DNA of 64,000 bases from contig JBCCAU010000008.1 in assembly GCA_039814625.1 (NCBI GenBank), positions 64,935 through 128,934 of the forward strand, written 5' to 3'. The position numbers were made by a program, and so were the translations under genes. Within the stretch, counting starts at the first letter, position 1; every line of letters begins with the position of its first letter. Source of the stretch: Pseudomonadota bacterium (GTDB taxonomy: Bacteria; Pseudomonadota; Alphaproteobacteria; Rhodobacterales; Rhodobacteraceae). This document shows, piece after piece, positions 1-11,092 of this stretch. A model generated the notes under the pieces. It did not search any database. It had not been told where the DNA came from and was given only the letters and a program-made list of their open reading frames with translations.

Positions 1-252
1 TTGGACTCTTCAGGCGGCAGCGGATGAGGGTCTTCATGAGGGGGGCGAGCCGCAGTCGTTGCATCTGCACCGTGTTTTTCTTGTTGCGTAATACCCGTAG
101 CCATGCCCATATCTCGAAGTTTTGGTAACCAGATCATACTGTATATAGCGGCTTGAAGATGTCTACGAAACTGAAAAACGTCGTGTCGGTGACGTCATTT
201 ATCGCAACAATGGTTGTCGATCTCGATAACCGACGAGTATACTCGCTACGTA

Positions 253-669
253 ATGATCTACAGGAATATCCACCTTGATTTGACCTTCATTGAAGGCAAA
301 GGCCCCGTCTCGAACATGCCGACGCATGGTGGCATTTACGCCGAGATACATTGGCCGACGCGTTCGATCCGTATTGGCGAAACGGGCAATTCGATGCGCG
401 GGCGCAACCGCTCGCACATGAGGTGGGCCGACAAGCACCTTGAGGGAACACACAATGAGAAAGAAGCCGCGCGGAAAGGCCCAATTGTCGACCTTGTGCG
501 CGAATGGGGCTCCGAGGGCCTCGAATACTACGTGATCACGGATGACCCACGGGTCCGCGAGGACCGAGAGTTACGGGTTGAGTGCGAGAAGCGCCTTCAC
601 GAATGGGCGCGAGAGCAGACTGAGTTCACCAACATCAACACGCAGCGCGGATACCGCACCGTGAACTAG
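253..669 (+). CDS. GIY-YIG family endonuclease
   Basis: GGIYAEIHWPTRSIRIGETGNSMRGRNRSH matches the GIY...(Y)IG-x-T...R...H pattern, with a later conserved Glu; ATG at 253 preferred over TTG at 214. Confidence 0.75.
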   Translation: MIYRNIHLDLTFIEGKGPVSNMPTHGGIYAEIHWPTRSIRIGETGNSMRGRNRSHMRWADKHLEGTHNEKEAARKGPIVDLVREWGSEGLEYYVITDDPRVREDRELRVECEKRLHEWAREQTEFTNINTQRGYRTVN

Positions 670-1382
670 TACCAGCCCGCCAGCGAGCCTTGGCCTGACA
701 ACTGCGGTTTGAGGTGTTGTGCCGCGAACGCGCCGACGATTAGCGAAATTCCAAGGTCCCCGTGACCGCCTCGCGACCGCTGCTGTGTGATCACCTGATT
801 GCCGGCGGCGGTCGTTGACGTTGTGAACGTCGCAAGGTCGGCTTCGATCTCGTCGCGCAAAGGCAGGTCCTGCGCGAACTGCAATTCCCCCGACGCAAAC
901 ATGACTGCCGTGTTCTCGATCATGAATGTCTTCCCTGCGTTGATGTACTTCCCATTCCGTCGCCACTCCTGACCGCTTGTCATCTGCACAGCAAAGTGCG
1001 GCACTCCTTGGTCGTCGAACATGTCCGACACAACGCGCCCGATACTCGTCCCATCAATGACAAGCTGCGACTTGCCCCCGAACGGCGGCGCATTCTTCAA
1101 ACGCACGAGGTGGTCGACGACCGCGACATAGGACACGCCTCGAAACCTGTCCGCATAGACGACGTTCAAACGACGCGGGCCAAGCTGCGCACCATCGGGT
1201 GTCATTTCAGGAATTTGCTTGTCTTCGAGAACACAGATGGCCGTGAAGTCGTTCGCCTGACCGAGATCCGCCGACACCCAGTAGCGTCGGTAGCCCGTCA
1301 GGCGCGCGACCGCAGGGTCCGCGTTCGTCTCGTTGACGATTGTTCCGTCTGGGCGTTCGACGAGGTTCAAAGTATCGGACAT
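666..1382 (-). CDS. Terminase large subunit, stand-alone C-terminal RNase H-like nuclease domain
   Basis: SADLGQANDFTAICVL, LVIDGTSIG..V.D and HGDL acidic motifs; own AGGAG RBS upstream of the ATG. Confidence 0.8.
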   Translation of the reverse strand: MSDTLNLVERPDGTIVNETNADPAVARLTGYRRYWVSADLGQANDFTAICVLEDKQIPEMTPDGAQLGPRRLNVVYADRFRGVSYVAVVDHLVRLKNAPPFGGKSQLVIDGTSIGRVVSDMFDDQGVPHFAVQMTSGQEWRRNGKYINAGKTFMIENTAVMFASGELQFAQDLPLRDEIEADLATFTTSTTAAGNQVITQQRSRGGHGDLGISLIVGAFAAQHLKPQLSGQGSLAGWY

Positions 1383-2146
1383 ATGGCCTTCTCCTGTGAC
1401 GTTGCCTGCTCGATCACGGACAGGTCAAAATATGAAACGCCATCCGCGAGAAATTCACACATCACCTCGGCACGGAATCGTGTCGCGGACAGTGTGCGGC
1501 GCAGACGGTCGACCTTCGCCTTGAGGCGTGGGATCGACGTGCCGGGCACCTTGATGCGATGCACGGCCTCCTGAGGCTCGAGGAACATTTGCGCGAACAG
1601 GTTACCCTTTCCTGCGGGCGTTGACGCGTAGAACGCCTGCCCGTTGTCTTTCAGCATGGGCAGGATCGACGAGATCACAGCGTCGTCATTCGGTAAGAAC
1701 GCGCACTCGTCCACGAGAAGCAGGTCTGCTGTGTAGCCACGGATCGTCGCGCCCGACGCCGGAACTGCGATGAACCTCGAGCCGTTATTTGCCTCGATCT
1801 CGGTCAGCGTGGACCGTTCAATAACTAAGTTGGTCGTTTTCAGGTAGCGTGCGACCTTCCGTGTGATCTCTCGCGTCTGGCGTTCGGCGGGTGCAAGGCA
1901 GATCGTTGTGCCCCCGCGCTCCATTTCGCGCACGCCTCGAGCCGCAAGGACACACGACTTGCCCGCCTGACGACACACGAGTAACGCGACGGTCTCGGCG
2001 TCCGACGAGAACGCCTCGGTCTGCCATGGGTCCGCAATTGCACCCGGGATTTCCGTTTGCAGGAAGCGGCCCATCTTCAAACCAAGGTCGTTGTCGCCTT
2101 CGATTAGGTCGAGGAAGTCGATAAATGCGGAGGCATCAAGCGGCAT
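1367..2146 (-). CDS. Terminase large subunit, stand-alone N-terminal ATPase domain
   Basis: Walker A CRQAGKS, Walker B LLLVDE, motif III ASTP, and C-terminal F.AE.MCEF linker. Confidence 0.88.
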   Translation of the reverse strand: MPLDASAFIDFLDLIEGDNDLGLKMGRFLQTEIPGAIADPWQTEAFSSDAETVALLVCRQAGKSCVLAARGVREMERGGTTICLAPAERQTREITRKVARYLKTTNLVIERSTLTEIEANNGSRFIAVPASGATIRGYTADLLLVDECAFLPNDDAVISSILPMLKDNGQAFYASTPAGKGNLFAQMFLEPQEAVHRIKVPGTSIPRLKAKVDRLRRTLSATRFRAEVMCEFLADGVSYFDLSVIEQATSQEKAICPIL

Positions 2147-2995: not shown

Positions 2996-3403
2996 TCACG
3001 CGACTCCCGCGAATTTCATGGGCAACGCGCATTCGTGGATGTCATACATCGGCAGCACGAAAGCCAGAGCATGAGAGAGGACCGTCCGTTGATACGAACC
3101 CGCACAGCAGACCCGATAGGCATCATTCGCAAGATGGCCCCGAACACCCGCAGCTACCAAATCCTCGCGAGCATCAATCGGCTCGCTACCCTTGAAAACG
3201 ATCAGGTCCAGAAAGGCCACATATGCCGCGATCCTCGCAACGCGCGGGACGTGGCTCAGCGCGTCCAAATTGAACGCCGTGAACGAGCCGCTGCCTGACG
3301 ACACCTCGCCGTGATCCGAGACGACGGGATCGCTCAGGTCGCCATAGTCGAGACCCGTTGCAAGATGCAGGACGGCTTTTTCTTCATTTGTCAGCTTGGG
3401 CAT
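2996..3403 (-). CDS. Hypothetical protein
   Basis: 135-aa ORF tightly packed between operon neighbours. Confidence 0.6.
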   Translation of the reverse strand: MPKLTNEEKAVLHLATGLDYGDLSDPVVSDHGEVSSGSGSFTAFNLDALSHVPRVARIAAYVAFLDLIVFKGSEPIDAREDLVAAGVRGHLANDAYRVCCAGSYQRTVLSHALAFVLPMYDIHECALPMKFAGVA

Positions 3404-4978: not shown

Positions 4979-5205
4979 TTGGGCCTCCTGGTTGTCGGTG
5001 AATTGCGCGTCCGATAGCGCAACCTAGAAATGACCATCGAACGCGCGAGACCGCCCACCCATCCGTTGAGGCGGTCGCCAATGAATATCAACCGCCCAGG
5101 GGAAGGTGTTCCGGGGATTGAGGTGGATTCGGAGAAGTTTGAGGTGGAATTTGTAAGTCGACCAAACTACTTGAATTCGGCCACGCGCTGGAAAAGACTA
5201 AAGCA

Positions 5206-5589
5206 ATGAGGCTACTAGTCGTTGATGATGAAATTCGCACATTGGGCGCGTTTACCTATAGGCTTGAAGAGATGGCCGAGGTAGTAGATTTGGTGGAATC
5301 CGCAGCCGACGCATTTGCAAAAATTGAACTGGTTGGGCGTTACGGCTACGTCATCTCGGACCATAGACTTGGACCAGACTCATTCTCTGATGAGCAGCAC
5401 AACGGCATTTTTGTACTATCCGCAATCTCCGAAAAAGCGCCTGGGACCAAGACTATCCTTTTTACACTGAGTCCAGACATTGAACGCCATGCACTCCAGG
5501 GTGGTATCGACGCCTGTTTCAACAAAATGCAACATCGAGAGTTGGTGGATTGGATAAAATCGGATTGGGAACTTAGACGGGGAGCATGA
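5206..5589 (+). CDS. Single-domain response regulator (REC)
   Basis: LLVVDDE, ISD phospho-acceptor, LFT and FNK; all receiver catalytic residues present. Confidence 0.85.
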   Translation: MRLLVVDDEIRTLGAFTYRLEEMAEVVDLVESAADAFAKIELVGRYGYVISDHRLGPDSFSDEQHNGIFVLSAISEKAPGTKTILFTLSPDIERHALQGGIDACFNKMQHRELVDWIKSDWELRRGA

Positions 5590-5590
5590 T

Positions 5591-6262
5591 ATGTCGGATG
5601 AAAATGAAACTGGCGGATTTCAAGCAAGGGCCTTTGACGAGCTTGTTAGGCTGGGAAAATGGATCGTAGATCGTCGAAAGCTGACACGCTCTGACATTTT
5701 TTCGAAAGACATTGAGCCGTTAATCGACGAATTGGATAGGACCCATGAAGACTTTCTGGTGGCCCTCCGAAAAATGGAGGTGGGTATCAGCAGCACGCTT
5801 GCTGCTGAATCAAGGAAGCAAAACTCAATAAATGAAGAACTGGAGCGACAAATCTCAATTTGCCACGACGTATCAGAGTTAATTGAAAAAGGAAGGCTTC
5901 AACGTCGAAAGTTGTTTGAGAAATGCTTGGCTCGGTATGTTGATCTTCGTCAGAATGGCGCTCACCAAATTGGTAAAAGGGCCTTTCTTATGCCGAGCGA
6001 TTTGGAGCTCATAACAAAGTTTTACGATGCCTTGATGGCGTATTTCACCAATGATGCCTCAGAATACGACCACAATGTGCGAACCATGATTGGGCGGGTT
6101 GAAAGTTCGCTTGAAGCGGCCAAGTTCAATGGTGTGACTGAAATGGTAGTGAACGATCTTCGCCAGCATTTGAGCGATCTGACAGCCATGGAAGATGCGT
6201 TTTCCAACAATTGGTCCAACGCTGTTCAGTTTAGGTTCCAGCTTGAGGCAAGGCTGACCTAG
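5591..6262 (+). CDS. Hypothetical all-alpha-helical protein coupled to the receiver gene
   Basis: 223-aa ORF starting 1 nt after the REC stop, GGAG RBS. Confidence 0.75.
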   Translation: MSDENETGGFQARAFDELVRLGKWIVDRRKLTRSDIFSKDIEPLIDELDRTHEDFLVALRKMEVGISSTLAAESRKQNSINEELERQISICHDVSELIEKGRLQRRKLFEKCLARYVDLRQNGAHQIGKRAFLMPSDLELITKFYDALMAYFTNDASEYDHNVRTMIGRVESSLEAAKFNGVTEMVVNDLRQHLSDLTAMEDAFSNNWSNAVQFRFQLEARLT

Positions 6263-6617
6263 ACAATTGGTCGCAAATTTCGACGGCGCTGTTGATTTGC
6301 TGTTCGTCGGGTATGGTTGCACAGATTATTAACGAACACCCCATTGCTGACGCAGAGGCTGCGTCTCTGATGCAATTTCACCGAACGTTGTCTACATATG
6401 TTGCGGTGGTATCGCCATCTGAAGGTTGCACTTCGCACTCTCCGACCCAGCTGCATCTGATTGATGATCAGCTGTTTTCTGTTCCAACTGATTGATAAGC
6501 AAGTGAATTGGACGGCTTTGCAATTGAAACGTTGCAATTTGCCCGTGTCTCTGACGGCAGCAAGGAGAGAAGTCTGGGGGAGATCACCAAGAGTGTGCGC
6601 GAATATACACATCCGTC

Positions 6618-6883
6618 TCAGACCTGACCAAGCCTTACCAAGGGGCTAACTCGCTAACCCGTTGTTCTTAAAATCGCTCTCAGGCTTCTCAGACTTCACA
6701 GACCTTAAATGTGATTTGTGTATATACCAGCCAGCGCACACGATCCACGACGCACGCAACCGCTCACGGATAAAACTGAACTCACCCCCACAAAGCCTGG
6801 TAGTCTGACCAAAATGAAAATCCCGCAACGCTTTCAAAACGTTACGGGATTCAGACTTCATGACGAAGCCTGAGTAAGCCTGA
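6618..6883. repeat. Iteron-like repeats (TCAGRCYT), putative replication origin
   Basis: Nine direct or inverted 8-mer copies immediately downstream of the primase-helicase gene. Confidence 0.65.
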
Positions 6884-6900
6884 GAGATTTGACCAAAGCC

Positions 6901-9209
6901 TTAGAACGCGTCCTCACGCGCCTTGTGTTCAAGAAACGCCTCCGCCGATCCCTCGCCCGTCTGTGAATATGAGAACGAACGCCACGCTTCCATCTCGGGA
7001 TACGTTTCGCCCGTCACTTTCGACACGATGCGCTGGAACGTCGGAAGGTCAGGCAGGCGCAAGCCGCCACGAAAGTCGTTTTTGACAGGCTGCATCACCA
7101 TCACGCCCTCTTGGCTCGCATAAGAATGCCAGCGATCAATAACGGTGCAGTATGTTTCTTTGACGCAGCCAAACTTGCGCACCATCTCGTTGCGCACGGT
7201 CTGGGAACTCTCGCGCCCGCCATGTTTGACATACTCGCGATGCAGCGACGCCGACGACACAGTACCGCGCCCGCGCAAGTCATCCGGCATACGCCTGTTT
7301 CTGCGATCTCGTTCATGAGTGCGAGTAAAGGGTCTGACGCGATCTTGTCTGACTTCTTCGCCTCTGTGACATAACCATAGCCGATCAAGCCACGGTCAAC
7401 CTCGTAGTCGAGCAGGTATTGCAAAACCAAGCCCGCGTTGTCGTCAACGAGGTCATAGTATGGCTGCCAAAACGCACGCGCCTCGCGACTGTTTGGATCG
7501 TGTTCGAACTTCGAGTTCATTTCGATCACCGTCCACCTTCGGTCGTCGTTGTCGATATGCACGGCTTGCGTTGCGTTGGTCGTCGCAATGACGCGATGCA
7601 CATTCTTGCCTGTGAATGATGCGAGATACTTCTGCTCATACGTCCAGACGTCCGACGTGACGAATGACTTCATAGTTGCCGCTTGTTGGCGTGATCCCGC
7701 AAACAGCGCCTCCTCGCACAGCACGAACGTTGAGCCGAACAGGTCACGATTGAAGCGGTCAAACATGCGAGTAGAACCGTGGATGGTCCGCGCGTGACGT
7801 TCACCGAGTAATTTGCGCATTGCACGTCCAAGGAACGTCTTGCCTCCGCCTTGTCCGCCACGCAGCGCGAGTGCTGATCCTGGATGTATCGACCACGGTC
7901 GTTGAATCGCGTCCGCGAGATACGTCATGACCCAGTGCGCAAGATCTTTGTCGCCACCACAGACAATGTTCTCGATATAGTCGATCCACAGTGACGGGTC
8001 GCCGCGCTTTGGCGTAACGGCCCATTCTTCGAACACATTGAACCCTGCACCTTCATAATCCGGCGACTCGATCACGATGCCTCGGTATTCGTTGCGGTCA
8101 ACGTCCATCATCCACAGCTTCGCCATAGGCACAGGGCCGTTCTTCGTCGGTACTGTGTGAGGTGCTGTCATGTCGAAGAACGAATTCTTGGGATAGCAGT
8201 CGCCATCCTCCTTGTTCAGAAACTCGACTTTTCCCTCGACAATCATCATAGCCCATTCGCGATTGAACTTCTCGACAATGCGATAGTGCAGCGGTGCGCG
8301 TGAGCCTTTTTCGAGACGGATCGTCGTCTTCCACATGGCTTCGATTTCTTGAAATGCCAGCGGGCCGTCAGCGAACGCCTCGTGAAACTTCACGCCCTCT
8401 TGGTTCAGTCGAAACAACTCGGCTTTGATGTCGCTATCTGTCCAGCCACGTGACTGCATTGACCGCGCAATGCGCATCAGCAAGTCGTTGCGTCCTGCGG
8501 GATCAACAGGCACCTTATAGCCTAGGTCAGAGTCGTCCATGACAGGATCGGCTTTCGCCATATCAGCGAGAAGCGTCGCGTCGATACGACACTTCTCGTC
8601 GATGAATCTCAGTACACCAAGCAAGTCAGCGTCGTCCGCATATGAGCCGCTGTTACTTTCGGAAATCACCCACGCAATCTGACACTGTTGGCCTCGCAGC
8701 GGCAGATTGACAGACGTTGGTTTGTCGTCAGGGCCTACAAGCACCTGCGACGCTTTTGGGAAAATCTCGATATGCTGCTGCCAATCCTTCGGCATGTTTC
8801 GGCGTTTCGATGCCAAGAAGTCGTGCATCAATTTTGCAGACACAGGCTCATCTGGAAAGACGACGACGTGTAGGCCGCGCGACTTCGTGCGAAATGCAGC
8901 AGATGGGCAGCGCATCCGCTGTTGTACCTGCAACACGTCATCCTCCAGCATGTCGTAGATGTCGAAGTCGAGAACGCCATAGGCGCACGTGCTGTCTGAC
9001 TTCACAGGTGCGATGCCGTAAGACGCCTGCCCAAGCAAATGCGCGTTCGCCATTTCGAGGGTCACAGGTGCGTCAATCAGCGTGACTTCAACTTCTGCCT
9101 TGCCTTTTTTGTCTCGACTACCTTTCGGCGTTAGCGAGATGTGTCGGTCCTGATTGCCGTCGAATAGTCGCAGGAATGTCTCTGCGGCTTGGATGTCATA
9201 ATCGTCCAT
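6901..9209 (-). CDS. Primase-polymerase / SF3-type helicase (AEP + PriCT + DUF5906-like), frameshifted near 7291
   Basis: VLDFD and S.GLH AEP motifs, GRND PriCT motif, Walker A GGQGGGKT, Walker B LCEE; natural C-terminus continues in the 6901-7290 frame. Confidence 0.82.
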
Positions 9210-9340: not shown

Positions 9341-9375
9341 CGGCGCGGGAGGTGACTCTCGCGCCGTTTTATTTT
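9341..9375 (+). terminator. Intrinsic-terminator-like hairpin antisense to the xis-primase transcript
   Basis: CGGCGCGGGAG-GTGA-CTCTCGCGCCG followed by TTTTATTTT on the + strand. Confidence 0.55.
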
Positions 9376-9599
9376 GCTGCAATCCGATTATCTTGGAGCC
9401 AGTCGATCAGGTCGGCTTTCAGATACCGAACGATCCGCGCTTCGGGCTGGCTATAAGCCGGGCCTGTTTTGCGCTTGCGATGCTGCAACAAGTAATCCTC
9501 GGACACGCCAAGGAATACAGAAGCCTGCTTCGTCGTCATGATCTCTGGGGTCTGCGCGTGTTCAATTGCCGAGCGCAGTTCGGCTATGAGGTCTGTCAT
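9369..9599 (-). CDS. Excisionase/AlpA-like HTH protein
   Basis: MTTKQASVFLGVS...L...R....GP.Y......VRY...DL..W HTH_17-type pattern; AAAGGAG RBS before ATG at 9599. Confidence 0.85.
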   Translation of the reverse strand: MTDLIAELRSAIEHAQTPEIMTTKQASVFLGVSEDYLLQHRKRKTGPAYSQPEARIVRYLKADLIDWLQDNRIAAK

Positions 9600-9758
9600 G
9601 ACCAATGCTCCTTTCAAAGCATTCGGTCAGAACTTCCAGAACATCTCCCTCCTTGGCTGCGCCAGACGATGTTCCTTGGCCACCGAGTTGGGGTGAACGC
9701 CTCAGTGGGGACCTGTTTAAAGCAAAAGCGCGCGGCGACACCGCACGCGCGCCGGACA

Positions 9759-10916
9759 TTACGCAGAAAAGATGCTTTCCGCAACGTCAAAAGAAGAAGT
9801 CGACTTAGAAACAATCTGTTGAGCGACTGCGTTCACGTCGTCGTGGGAGCCAGCCGACTTGATGTATCGGCTCACCGCACCCTTTGCGACGACCTTGTCG
9901 CCGCGCAAATGTTTGATGGTTATCTCAGACAAGCCGACTAGAGCCGCACCCGTGGAGAAGACAGATCGACCGTCTTTCGGGCGCAGCAAGTTCGGGTCAC
10001 CAAGTGGACGGGGCACAACCATCGGAGTGTCCCTTGTCATCGACGCGAACACCCAACGATCATGTATTCGGGGCAGCGATTTGAACGCTGCGACGGCAGG
10101 ATCAGAAAGCGGGAAGGTCCGCTTGAGGTCATTCTTGAGACGCGGGATAGTCAATTGCTTTGCGTCTAGGTCTAAGTGTTCCCATTCGATTTTGCGTAGG
10201 TGGCCGGGACGAATGCCTGTGAACACGACAGCTCCCCAGAAAGCACGCTGACGGCGATCCTTAACCTGCGTAACTAGGTCCATAACAGGCCAAGGTTTAT
10301 CGACGTCAAACAGGAGTTCGTCCTCTCTTTGGCCGAACCCTTGCACACCGTGCGTTGGGTCGTGTTCGAGATCGTTCTGCAACATTAGTTCGTTGGCGTA
10401 GATGGAAGACAGGATGCGGAGGAGTTTGGTTGCAGTTGTCGGCTTGTGGGCGAGTGAGCGAATGCGGTCGTTGACCATCGCCTTGCGAATTTTCAGGATC
10501 GACAAATCGAGCCAATCAGCCACGTGATTGTTAAGCGTGTTCTCGTAATCGTAGATCGTGTTCTGACGCTTGATCTTGGTGCGGGGATCAATCGGATTGC
10601 GCGTGTGGCGGTCGAACGCTTCGCGCAACGTGACCTGCTGTTTCGCCGTTGCCGTTAAGCGCCCTTCGTTCACGGCCTCATTCTGTTCACCGACTTCGCG
10701 ACCCGCAGCCAGATAATCGACGAGCGGCCACGTCCCAATCGTTCGCACCGTATTCTTGCCATCTTGGAATTTTCGGAAGCGCCATGTCTTCGTCTTCGCG
10801 CCCACTTCCATATACAGATTTGGAAAACGGGCATCGCGGTAGCGATCTGTTCCGCTGCCTGAATGTTTAAGCTTATCGAGTGTGCCTTTGGTGAATGTGA
10901 TCGTCTGCGTTGCCAT
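9759..10916 (-). CDS. int: Tyrosine recombinase/integrase with arm-binding N-terminal domain
   Basis: N-terminal arm-type domain, FTGIR box I, KDGR box II, C-terminal RY; adjacent to the att repeat. Confidence 0.9.
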   Translation of the reverse strand: MATQTITFTKGTLDKLKHSGSGTDRYRDARFPNLYMEVGAKTKTWRFRKFQDGKNTVRTIGTWPLVDYLAAGREVGEQNEAVNEGRLTATAKQQVTLREAFDRHTRNPIDPRTKIKRQNTIYDYENTLNNHVADWLDLSILKIRKAMVNDRIRSLAHKPTTATKLLRILSSIYANELMLQNDLEHDPTHGVQGFGQREDELLFDVDKPWPVMDLVTQVKDRRQRAFWGAVVFTGIRPGHLRKIEWEHLDLDAKQLTIPRLKNDLKRTFPLSDPAVAAFKSLPRIHDRWVFASMTRDTPMVVPRPLGDPNLLRPKDGRSVFSTGAALVGLSEITIKHLRGDKVVAKGAVSRYIKSAGSHDDVNAVAQQIVSKSTSSFDVAESIFSA

Positions 10917-11048
10917 GAGGTCGGGCTCCATTTTGCAATTGAATTTTGCAATTGCGTAGTCGCCAAAACCGTGTCCGATCAACCGGAAGTCATTGTTTTT
11001 AAGGTAAAAACTGTCAGATCCACCGTGAGCAACCGACTTCCATTGAAT

Positions 11049-11092
11049 TTGTAATCAGTAGGTCCGCGGTTCAAGTCCGTGTGGGGGCACCA
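11049..11092 (+). repeat. att site: duplicated 3' half of tRNA-Thr(UGU)
   Basis: TTGTAATCAGTAGGTCCGCGGTTCAAGTCCGTGTGGGGGCACCA contains anticodon loop, T-arm GGTTCAA and CCA, but has no intact 5' half. Confidence 0.85.

What the first reader, a model, noticed from the sequence alone, without database searches (positions are those of the whole stretch)
5206..6262. Orphan receiver domain plus unknown helical protein as satellite cargo: candidate defence or signalling module
Seen: a two-gene operon (1-nt gap) on the opposite strand, more AT-rich by eye than the element core, inserted between the origin and downstream genes. The REC keeps all phosphorylation residues (DD, D, T, K), yet no histidine kinase is present. 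The partner is a 223-aa all-helical protein with no motif I recognise. Known: the slot next to the replication module of satellites is a hotspot for anti-phage systems. Inference: this is a possible undescribed defence system, or one that taps into host phosphorelays.
Basis: partly seen in the sequence, partly recalled or inferred. Interest (0 to 1): 0.72.

Follow-up and report, generated by a model that had tools for sequence, protein, structure and literature searches.

The report
Mobile kinase-less receiver plus helical-bundle cassette
A small, horizontally moving two-gene unit on a satellite-like island pairs an intact phosphate-receiver switch protein with a member of an unnamed helical protein family found almost only on phages, plasmids and islands. 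It is a credible but untested candidate for a new phage-conflict or signal-hijacking module.

Summary
Two + strand genes (REC 5206-5589, helical protein 5591-6262, 1-nt gap) form a low-GC islet (0.47) between minus-strand genes of a 14.3-kb island. The island is integrated at tRNA-Thr and carries an integrase, primase, terminase and an R-M system.

The REC is divergent (27.1 bits, below the Pfam cut-off). It folds as a (beta-alpha)5 receiver and keeps D7/D8, D52, T87 and K107.

The partner is a long helical bundle with no Pfam, PHROG, PADLOC, NCBIfam, PDB or BFVD relative. Its family has only 26 representatives among 1.84 billion proteins.

A 100%-supported clade of seven members includes every one seen with an upstream, usually overlapping REC gene. 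In another contig the pair is again a sharp 1.1-kb low-GC islet.

More distant members stand alone in a Mu-like prophage (beside an HPr-domain protein), a phage structural module, a lambdoid-type prophage and repABC plasmids. The family is absent from 36 congeneric genomes.

It is therefore mobile accessory cargo, not a housekeeping two-component operon. Nothing shows that it defends. My best reading (confidence about 0.4) is a kinase-less, phosphorylation-gated conflict module. The main rival is a phosphate sink that damps host signalling.

The parts
5206..5589 (+). Stand-alone receiver (REC) domain protein, 127 aa. It is divergent and has a 7-residue insertion after the phospho-acceptor Asp52.
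   Evidence: Pfam Response_reg E 4.9e-6, 27.1 bits, below the 30.2 cut-off. hhalign to E. coli CheY gives 96% probability. AF2 pLDDT is 84 with a (beta-alpha)5 fold. 286 PDB matches have E<=0.001 and the 50 listed are all receiver domains, TM 0.6-0.79. D7/D8/D52/T87/K107 are conserved in orthologues.
5591..6262 (+). 223-aa helical-bundle protein of an undescribed, MGE-restricted family. Invariant R29, R33, F55, R105, Y151, H161 and W208; near-invariant H52 and Y159.
   Evidence: AF2 model is all-helical: H7-27, H33-75, H80-122, H135-180, H184-211. 26 representatives among 1.84e9 proteins. Alignment A3. No hit in Pfam, PHROGs, PADLOC, NCBIfam, PDB sequences, PDB folds or BFVD.
4979..5205 (.). 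Divergent intergenic region between the minus-strand 101-aa gene and the REC gene. It presumably holds the cassette promoter.
   Evidence: Position only. The consensus scan found no sigma-70-like site here. There is weak similarity around 'GAATTCGG' with the upstream regions of L001 and L002.
6616..6886 (.). Iteron-like direct and inverted repeats (TCTCAGACYT and related). Putative island origin downstream of the cassette.
   Evidence: the repeat finder families D1, D4, D6 and inverted pairs I3, I4, I6, I7.
7101..9209 (-). AEP primase / DUF5906 (VapE-like) replication protein of the island.
   Evidence: Pfam DUF5906 7e-17, AEP-TOTE 4e-9, VapE-like 2e-6.
9369..9617 (-). HTH_17 (AlpA/excisionase-type) protein.
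   Evidence: Pfam HTH_17 3.4e-8.
9759..10982 (-). Tyrosine integrase.
   Evidence: Pfam Phage_integrase 2.5e-9 and Arm-DNA-bind_3.
11047..11092 (+). attR: a 46-bp exact copy of the 3' end of tRNA-Thr(tgt). The tRNA lies 3.2 kb left of the window (contig C11:61714-61789), so the island is about 14.3 kb.
   Evidence: k-mer match and ARAGORN on the contig.
666..2146 (-). Terminase large subunit split into an ATPase gene (1367-2146) and a nuclease-like gene (666-1382). This is the packaging module of the island.
   Evidence: PHROG terminase large subunit 3.6e-38 and phrog_27743. Pfam Terminase_6N.

Best explanation
This is a portable two-gene accessory cassette of mobile elements. The helical-bundle protein is the working part and the stand-alone receiver is a phosphorylation switch added to it in one clade. 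The two are made together (1-nt gap here, 4-11-nt overlaps in most orthologues) and probably form a complex. The receiver probably docks on the clade-specific N-terminal helix and the adjacent end of the bundle. The cassette has no kinase and has moved between distant hosts. The receiver is therefore presumably charged by a generic donor (acetyl phosphate, or cross-talk from host kinases or HPt proteins). In that way it would couple the helical protein's activity to the cell's phosphorylation and energy state. The most likely biological role is in conflict between mobile elements and host: phage exclusion or defence that benefits the satellite-like island and its host. Shown: gene reality, REC fold and active-site residues, conserved linkage, mobility and MGE restriction. 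Inferred: the complex, the phosphodonor, the gating and the defence role.
For: The pair is conserved with REC upstream in every locus of the clade where the upstream DNA is visible: window, L001, L002/L003, L008, and L009 (partial, REC-like by alignment only). That clade has 100/99 support. Solo homologues of the same length occur in a Mu-like prophage, an IMG/VR phage contig between DUF6441 and a tail terminator, a prophage right after RusA, and two repABC plasmid regions. This suggests the helical protein carries the core activity. The REC active site is intact and conserved. The cassette is a sharp low-GC islet both here and in L001, and the family is absent from 36 same-genus genomes. The island also carries a type II R-M system. 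A related island at the same tRNA-Thr carries two methylases plus an AAA_5 ATPase. Defence genes lie near some homologues: AbiV, ThsA-like SIR2 and NACHT, and a PDC-M66A-like gene. The clade-specific invariant residues are A14, F15, R20, G22, W24, I25, R28, K30, L31, L113, Y116, V117, L119, E139, L140, A147 and L148. They cluster in helix 1 and, by helix-register arithmetic, at one end of the bundle. Precedents for REC use in immunity are Detocs (bioRxiv 10.1101/2023.01.24.525353) and Ambrosia (bioRxiv 10.1101/2025.09.30.679545).
Against: There is no hit to any PADLOC, PHROG, Pfam or NCBIfam family and no recognisable effector domain. Fold searches return only generic helical bundles. Defence neighbours are present in only about 3 of 9 contexts and no enrichment statistic could be computed. 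Solo homologues with no visible regulator argue that the helical protein is not a toxic abortive-infection effector. The invariant Arg/His/Tyr set would equally suit an enzyme acting on phosphoproteins (the rival reading).
Confidence: 0.4

Rival explanations
1. Phosphate sink or anti-signalling module. The helical protein would be a phosphatase or phosphotransfer protein acting on phospho-carrier proteins. The co-encoded receiver would be its substrate or decoy. Together they would drain phosphoryl groups from a host kinase or HPt pathway (or from a two-component-based defence such as Detocs), silencing it to the element's advantage. Solo family members would act directly on host regulators.
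For: Three independent lineages of the family sit beside phospho-signalling genes. The REC-linked clade is one. Its sister P0009 lies 51 bp from a divergent HPr-domain protein with an intact GLHARP His15 motif. P0010 lies next to a REC plus HATPase_c pair. The family-wide invariant residues are R29, R33, R105, H161, Y151 and W208, with near-invariant H52, Y159, R102 and R106. By helix register most of them lie at the same mid-bundle level, as expected for a phosphate-binding or catalytic pocket (inference). A single-domain receiver next to a ~220-aa all-helical partner mirrors CheY-CheZ. DtcB is a documented stand-alone receiver proposed to act as a buffer. The solo homologues are easy to explain under this model.
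Against: There is no sequence or profile similarity to CheZ (hhalign probability 0.25%). No conserved DxxxQ, ExxN or HxxKG motif appears in A3. There is no HPt, PhoU or HD Pfam hit in any of 28 members beyond one chance-level PhoU_div match. One REC-linked member (P0008) has Tyr in place of H52. The P0010 neighbours are convergent and the HPr gene is divergent, so neither is an operon partner. The REC has no detectable paralogue in its own host (phmmer E<0.01 finds only itself), so it is not an obvious mimic of a host regulator.
Confidence: 0.27
2. Toxin-antitoxin-like addiction module. The helical protein would be a growth inhibitor and the upstream receiver its neutraliser, stabilising whichever element carries the cassette.
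For: It has the usual look of such modules: two small overlapping or abutting genes with the smaller one first, sporadic distribution, low GC and a location on mobile elements.
Against: Full-length solo homologues occur without any conserved neighbour that could neutralise them, for example between structural phage genes and directly after RusA. No toxin-type domain was found. Conservation of the complete phospho-acceptor site in the receiver is not needed for a simple antitoxin.
Confidence: 0.12
3. Regulator of the island's own life cycle. The pair would sense helper-phage infection or host state and control induction, replication at the adjacent iteron origin, or packaging.
For: It lies between the iteron-like origin and the divergently transcribed late/packaging operon. 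Phages of Alphaproteobacteria are known to read the host CtrA phosphorelay (PMC9437464).
Against: The same cassette occurs in unrelated contexts without the island's core genes: L001 next to tgt/queA, and L002, a 3.3-kb contig with a third unknown gene. A related island in G019 lacks it. Neither protein has a DNA-binding domain. There is no CtrA box near the cassette.
Confidence: 0.12
4. A fragment of an ordinary housekeeping two-component operon, or chance ORFs.
For: The REC scores below the Pfam gathering threshold.
Against: Orthologous pairs are conserved over their full length in at least four other loci. The REC fold is confirmed. The family is absent from all 36 congeners searched. The pair lies inside an att-bounded island. 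No kinase gene lies on the contig.
Confidence: 0.02

Closest known systems
Detocs (DtcA kinase, DtcB stand-alone receiver, DtcC receiver-PNP effector; bioRxiv 10.1101/2023.01.24.525353)
   Same: It uses a phosphorylatable receiver domain in a mobile immune context and includes a stand-alone receiver (DtcB) with no output domain.
   Different: Detocs has its own sensor kinase and an effector fused to a second receiver. This cassette has no kinase, a single receiver and a separate helical protein of unknown activity. PADLOC gave no significant hit for either protein: the REC's only match is PDC-M60C at E 0.017, and the helical protein has none.
CheY-CheZ (single-domain response regulator plus all-helical phosphatase)
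   Same: A ~125-aa stand-alone receiver is encoded next to a ~215-225-aa wholly helical partner. The REC profile aligns to CheY with 96% probability.
   Different: The helical family has no detectable similarity to E. coli CheZ (hhalign probability 0.25%) and no conserved DxxxQ. There are no chemotaxis genes nearby. The cassette is located on mobile elements, and the gene order is REC first with translational coupling.
Ambrosia and R-M-linked two-component-like modules (bioRxiv 10.1101/2025.09.30.679545; Pfam Response_reg_2/HEF_HK as recalled)
   Same: Receiver proteins occur in defence loci, and this island also carries a type II R-M system.
   Different: Those receivers carry DNA-binding or other output domains and work with a HATPase kinase in the same operon. 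Here the R-M genes are about 5 kb or more away at the other end of the island, and the Pfam scan hit only PF00072.
Defence hotspots of phage satellites (P4-like and PICI cargo slots; own knowledge of Rousset et al. 2022 and Fillol-Salom et al. 2022)
   Same: It is a variable, compositionally foreign cargo in an int-primase-terminase island at a tRNA gene. A sister island at the same site carries methylases and a McrB-like ATPase.
   Different: No demonstrated helper phage, no capsid-redirecting genes and no tested anti-phage activity. The island family itself is uncharacterised.
Histidine phosphotransfer (HPt) and Spo0B-type four-helix-bundle proteins
   Same: It is a helical bundle with an invariant histidine (H161) encoded next to a receiver. 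The sister lineage sits beside an HPr phosphocarrier.
   Different: There is no Hpt Pfam hit in any of 28 members, no HxxKG motif and no HPt structure among the top 50 Foldseek matches. The helices are about 45 residues long, twice those of HPt domains as I recall them.

Membership tests
Response regulator receiver domain (PF00072 / CheY-like superfamily) | (beta-alpha)5 Rossmann-like fold | tested here: met
   AF2 pLDDT 84 with five strands alternating with five helices. 286 PDB matches have E<=0.001 and the 50 listed are all receivers, TM 0.6-0.79.
Response regulator receiver domain (PF00072 / CheY-like superfamily) | Acidic pair, phospho-acceptor Asp, Thr/Ser and Lys at the canonical positions | tested here: met
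   D7, D8, D52, T87 and K107 are conserved in orthologues. D7/D8/D52 align to CheY D12/D13/D57. Departures: a 7-residue longer beta3-alpha3 loop, an aromatic residue at K-2 rather than K-3, and no Pro after the Lys (read).
Response regulator receiver domain (PF00072 / CheY-like superfamily) | Score above the Pfam gathering threshold (30.2 bits) | tested here: not met
   27.1 bits and 26.4 bits in the genome scan, the weakest of the host's 24 hits. The orthologue in L008 passes with 42.1 bits. The domain is a divergent member, not a non-member.
Detocs | Three-gene operon with a sensor histidine kinase and a receiver-effector fusion | tested here: not met
   No HATPase_c on the contig, only one receiver with no fused domain, and no significant PADLOC hit for either protein.
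CheZ phosphatase | Sequence or profile similarity to CheZ and a conserved catalytic DxxxQ | tested here: not met
   hhalign probability 0.25%. No Gln or Asp-x3-Gln appears among positions conserved at 60% or more.
HPt / histidine phosphotransfer domain | Hpt profile match and HxxKG-type motif on a short four-helix bundle | tested here: not met
   No Hpt hit in 28 members. The motif around H161 is Y-x-H-[DEGK]-[ILMV] with a variable +3 position.
Type II toxin-antitoxin module | Second gene toxic, first gene neutralises it | not testable with these tools
   Only the gene layout is compatible. Solo homologues argue against toxicity.
Known anti-phage defence systems (PADLOC-DB v2.0.0) | HMM match of either protein to a defence or candidate-defence family | tested here: not met
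   The REC matches PDC-M60C only at E 0.017 and the helical protein has no match.
Phage satellite / integrative island (carrier element) | att-bounded element at a tRNA with integrase, excisionase-type HTH, primase-helicase and packaging genes but no capsid genes | tested here: met
   46-bp direct repeat of the tRNA-Thr 3' end. int, HTH_17 and AEP/DUF5906. Split TerL. No capsid, portal or tail family was found in the island ORFs tested. Helper dependence was not tested.

The most novel reading that the evidence does not exclude
The helical family may be a previously unrecognised class of MGE-borne proteins that act on phospho-carrier proteins (receiver Asp~P or HPr His~P). In the REC-linked clade it would form a self-contained, kinase-less module. 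That module would either fire an immune response when the host's phosphorylation state collapses during infection, or act as a phosphate sink that switches off host two-component pathways, including two-component-based immunity such as Detocs. Either would be a new principle: mobile elements reading or draining host phosphorelays through a minimal receiver-plus-bundle pair.
Probability: 0.2. Interest if true: 0.8.

Novelty: new variant of a known kind. Interest (0 to 1): 0.55.

Why it matters
If functional as proposed, the cassette would show that a receiver domain can be used by mobile elements without any cognate kinase. It would also give a first handle on an unnamed protein family that recurs in phages, prophages, plasmids and satellite-like islands of marine Proteobacteria. 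Both main readings (immune module or signalling hijack) are directly testable with two small genes and three or four point mutants. The family is rare (26 clusters at 50% identity among 1.84 billion proteins), which limits its general importance.

Tried and rejected
- Pfam, PHROGs, NCBIfam and PADLOC scans of the helical protein, and Pfam scans of all 28 family members, gave nothing consistent.
- The PDB sequence profile search, Foldseek against PDB and Foldseek against BFVD gave only generic or designed helical bundles and alpha-pore-forming toxins at low TM. I rejected these as non-specific.
- hhalign of the family against E. coli CheZ found no relation.
- A word-based homologue search for the REC found only itself. 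phmmer of the REC against all host ORFs found no paralogue.
- The search for related loci with the broad alignment failed for lack of a conserved stretch. With the narrow alignment it found only the known Cellvibrionaceae contig in genome contigs and nothing in viral or metagenome contigs.
- The third homologue search, with the family profile, added no new members.
- A CtrA-box (TTAA-N7-TTAA) scan found none near the cassette and fewer in the window than chance.
- The promoter and terminator consensus scan found no site for the operon.
- A receiver-helical complex prediction was not possible with the single-chain structure tool.
- Model coordinates are not returned, so clustering of conserved residues rests on helix-register arithmetic only.

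Full report
**Observation.** Two + strand ORFs lie at 5206-5589 (127 aa) and 5591-6262 (223 aa). They are separated by one base and flanked on both sides by minus-strand genes. GC falls to 0.45-0.47 across them. The pair is 0.468, against 0.59 and 0.544 for the island core on either side and 0.509 for the whole 2.8-Mb genome.

**The carrier element.**
- A 46-bp exact direct repeat links window 11047-11092 to the 3' end of tRNA-Thr(tgt) at contig C11:61744-61789, 3.2 kb left of the window. The island is therefore about 14.3 kb.
- From the attR side it encodes a tyrosine integrase, an HTH_17 excisionase-type protein and an AEP-primase/DUF5906 protein.
- An iteron-like repeat field follows at 6616-6886, and then the cassette.
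- Next come several unknown minus-strand genes and a split large terminase.
- In the part outside the window lie a type II DNA methylase (PADLOC MTase_II, 456 bits), an adjacent unknown 295-aa gene that may be its endonuclease, and an HhH-GPD protein.
- A GapR-like gene just upstream of the tRNA suggests an alphaproteobacterial host. This is my inference and my own knowledge of GapR.
- One congener (G019) has a related integrase-primase island (primase 43% identical) at the same tRNA-Thr. Its cargo is different: two methylases, an AAA_5 ATPase and unknown genes. This island type therefore carries exchangeable, partly defence-type cargo.

**The receiver.**
- Pfam scores it just below threshold (27.1 against 30.2 bits). 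It is the weakest of the 24 receiver hits in the genome, and phmmer finds no paralogue in the host.
- It is nevertheless a true receiver. The orthologue profile aligns to E. coli CheY with 96% probability and superposes D7/D8/D52 on D12/D13/D57.
- AlphaFold2 gives a (beta-alpha)5 fold at pLDDT 84. Foldseek returns 286 PDB matches at E<=0.001, and the 50 listed are all receivers.
- D7/D8, D52, T87 and K107 are conserved among orthologues.
- Distinctive features are a conserved, 7-residue-longer loop after the acceptor Asp (LGP...E..NG) and the absence of the usual Lys-Pro.
- No HATPase_c gene lies on the 130-kb contig.

**The helical partner.**
- AlphaFold2 (pLDDT 78.8) gives a short N-terminal helix followed by three antiparallel helices of about 45 residues, a fourth of about 28, and a short C-terminal helix.
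- Nothing in Pfam, PHROGs, PADLOC, NCBIfam, PDB sequences, PDB folds or BFVD resembles it beyond generic bundles.
- An exhaustive profile search of 1.84 billion representatives found only 26 proteins, all but one (152 aa) of 210-263 aa.
- Across 28 aligned members R29, R33, F55, R105, Y151, H161 and W208 are invariant. H52, Y159, N78, R102 and R106 are nearly so.
- By helix register, H52, F55, R102, R105, Y151, Y159, H161 and W208 lie at about the same mid-bundle height. This suggests a polar pocket for a ligand, metal or phosphate.
- The protein is acidic to neutral and has no hydrophobic segment.

**Linkage and mobility.**
- In every member of the close clade whose upstream DNA is visible, a receiver gene precedes the helical gene. 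These are the window, L001, L002/L003, L008, and L009, which is partial and REC-like by alignment only. In all but L009 (22-nt gap) the genes abut or overlap, by 4 nt in L001 and L002 and by 11 nt in L008.
- In a maximum-likelihood tree the seven close proteins form a clade with 100/99 support.
- In L001 the pair is a sharply bounded 1.1-kb islet of 0.45 GC inside DNA of 0.60-0.64 GC, next to tgt/queA at a contig end.
- In a Cellvibrionaceae MAG it sits on a 3.4-kb contig whose ends repeat 130 nt, together with one unknown 280-aa gene.
- L001 and L002 share a hairpin (GCGGCCGTT...AACGGC) after the stop codon.
- None of 36 same-genus genomes has the family.
- The would-be refuters 'housekeeping operon' and 'never co-occurring' are therefore both excluded.

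**Distant, receiver-less members.** All of their informative contexts are mobile elements.
- P0009, the sister of the REC-linked clade (87/76 support), lies at the edge of a Mu-like prophage. It is 51 bp from a divergently transcribed 207-aa protein whose N-terminus is a bona fide HPr domain with the GLHARP phospho-histidine motif.
- P0011 lies between a DUF6441 gene and a tail terminator on an IMG/VR viral contig.
- P0017 follows RusA in a prophage that abuts ThsA-like SIR2 and NACHT genes.
- P0012 and P0014 lie beside repABC modules. P0014 is in a Roseibium isolate.
- P0020 is two genes from an AbiV-like gene.
- P0010 is convergent with a receiver-kinase pair.

**Interpretation.** The helical protein is the conserved core and the receiver is a clade-specific addition.
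- The residues invariant only in the REC-linked clade are A14, F15, R20, G22, W24, I25, R28, K30, L31, L113, Y116, V117, L119, E139, L140, A147 and L148. They lie in the poorly modelled N-terminal helix and, by register, at one end of the bundle. I read this as the receiver's docking surface.
- The cassette lacks a kinase and occurs in both an apparently alphaproteobacterial genome and a gammaproteobacterial MAG. A host-specific kinase is therefore unlikely. Acetyl phosphate or promiscuous cross-talk is the more plausible donor. This rests on established knowledge that many receivers autophosphorylate from small-molecule donors and that kinase-regulator specificity co-evolves.
- My best reading (0.4) is a phosphorylation-gated conflict module. 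It is favoured by the cargo position, the R-M cargo of this island and its sister island, and the scattered defence neighbours.
- The strongest rival (0.27) is a phosphate sink or anti-signalling device. It is favoured by the recurrent phospho-carrier neighbours (REC, HPr, REC-kinase), by the Arg/His/Tyr-rich invariant set, and by the ease with which it explains solo members.
- Toxin-antitoxin and island-regulator readings are less likely (0.12 each).
- Known receiver-based immune systems, Detocs and Ambrosia, differ. They have their own kinase and recognisable effectors.

**Verdict.** This is an undescribed, rare, mobile two-gene cassette built on a new helical family, and its function is untested. 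I score interest at 0.55 and classify it as a new variant of a known kind (receiver-based accessory modules of mobile elements). I put a 0.2 chance on it representing a new principle.

Noticed in passing
contig C11:61744-61789 (3.2 kb left of window) and window 11047-11092: A 46-bp exact direct repeat of the tRNA-Thr(tgt) 3' end bounds a ~14.3-kb island. The window cuts off its left 3.2 kb.
   Followed up: yes
L019 3105-6072 (contig C11:62104-65071, island left arm; its last 137 bases are window 1-137): Type II DNA methylase (464 aa, PADLOC MTase_II 456 bits) with an adjacent unknown 295-aa gene (candidate endonuclease) and an HhH-GPD glycosylase-like gene. This is a second, recognisable defence-type cargo of the same island.
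   Followed up: partly
L028 (G019:C1:952000-971000): A congeneric genome has a related integrase-primase island (primase 43% identical) at the same tRNA-Thr. Its cargo is two methylases, an AAA_5 (McrB-like) ATPase and unknown genes. An ABC-3C CTD6 protein lies just beyond the integrase.
   Followed up: partly
L005 5326-5949 (-): 207-aa protein with an intact HPr phosphocarrier domain (GLHARP, Ser46 region) fused to an unknown ~120-aa C-terminal part. It is divergent from a helical-family member at the edge of a Mu-like prophage in a Hyphomicrobiales MAG.
   Followed up: partly
L002 1-130 and 3317-3446: The 3.4-kb Cellvibrionaceae contig carrying the cassette has identical 130-nt ends. This could be a 3316-bp circle or a repeat-bounded unit. 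Its only other gene is an unknown 280-aa protein.
   Followed up: partly
L001 ~1680-1725 and L002 ~3100-3145 (approximate, read from alignment A6): A conserved hairpin (TGCGGCCGTT..N..AACGGCNGTTT) lies just downstream of the helical gene in two orthologous cassettes but not in the window. It may be a terminator travelling with the cassette.
   Followed up: no
window 666-2146 (-): The large terminase is encoded as two overlapping genes: an ATPase (PHROG TerL 3.6e-38) and a separate nuclease-like protein (phrog_27743).
   Followed up: no
window 214-669 (+): A 151-aa ORF on the opposite strand between the terminase nuclease gene and the methylase. It has no family hit in Pfam or PADLOC.
   Followed up: no
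window 6263-6900: A 640-bp non-coding stretch with TCTCAGACYT-type direct repeats and matching inverted copies, plus a 16-bp perfect-ish palindrome at 6819-6851 followed by a T-run on the minus strand. This is consistent with an origin plus a terminator of the primase operon.
   Followed up: partly
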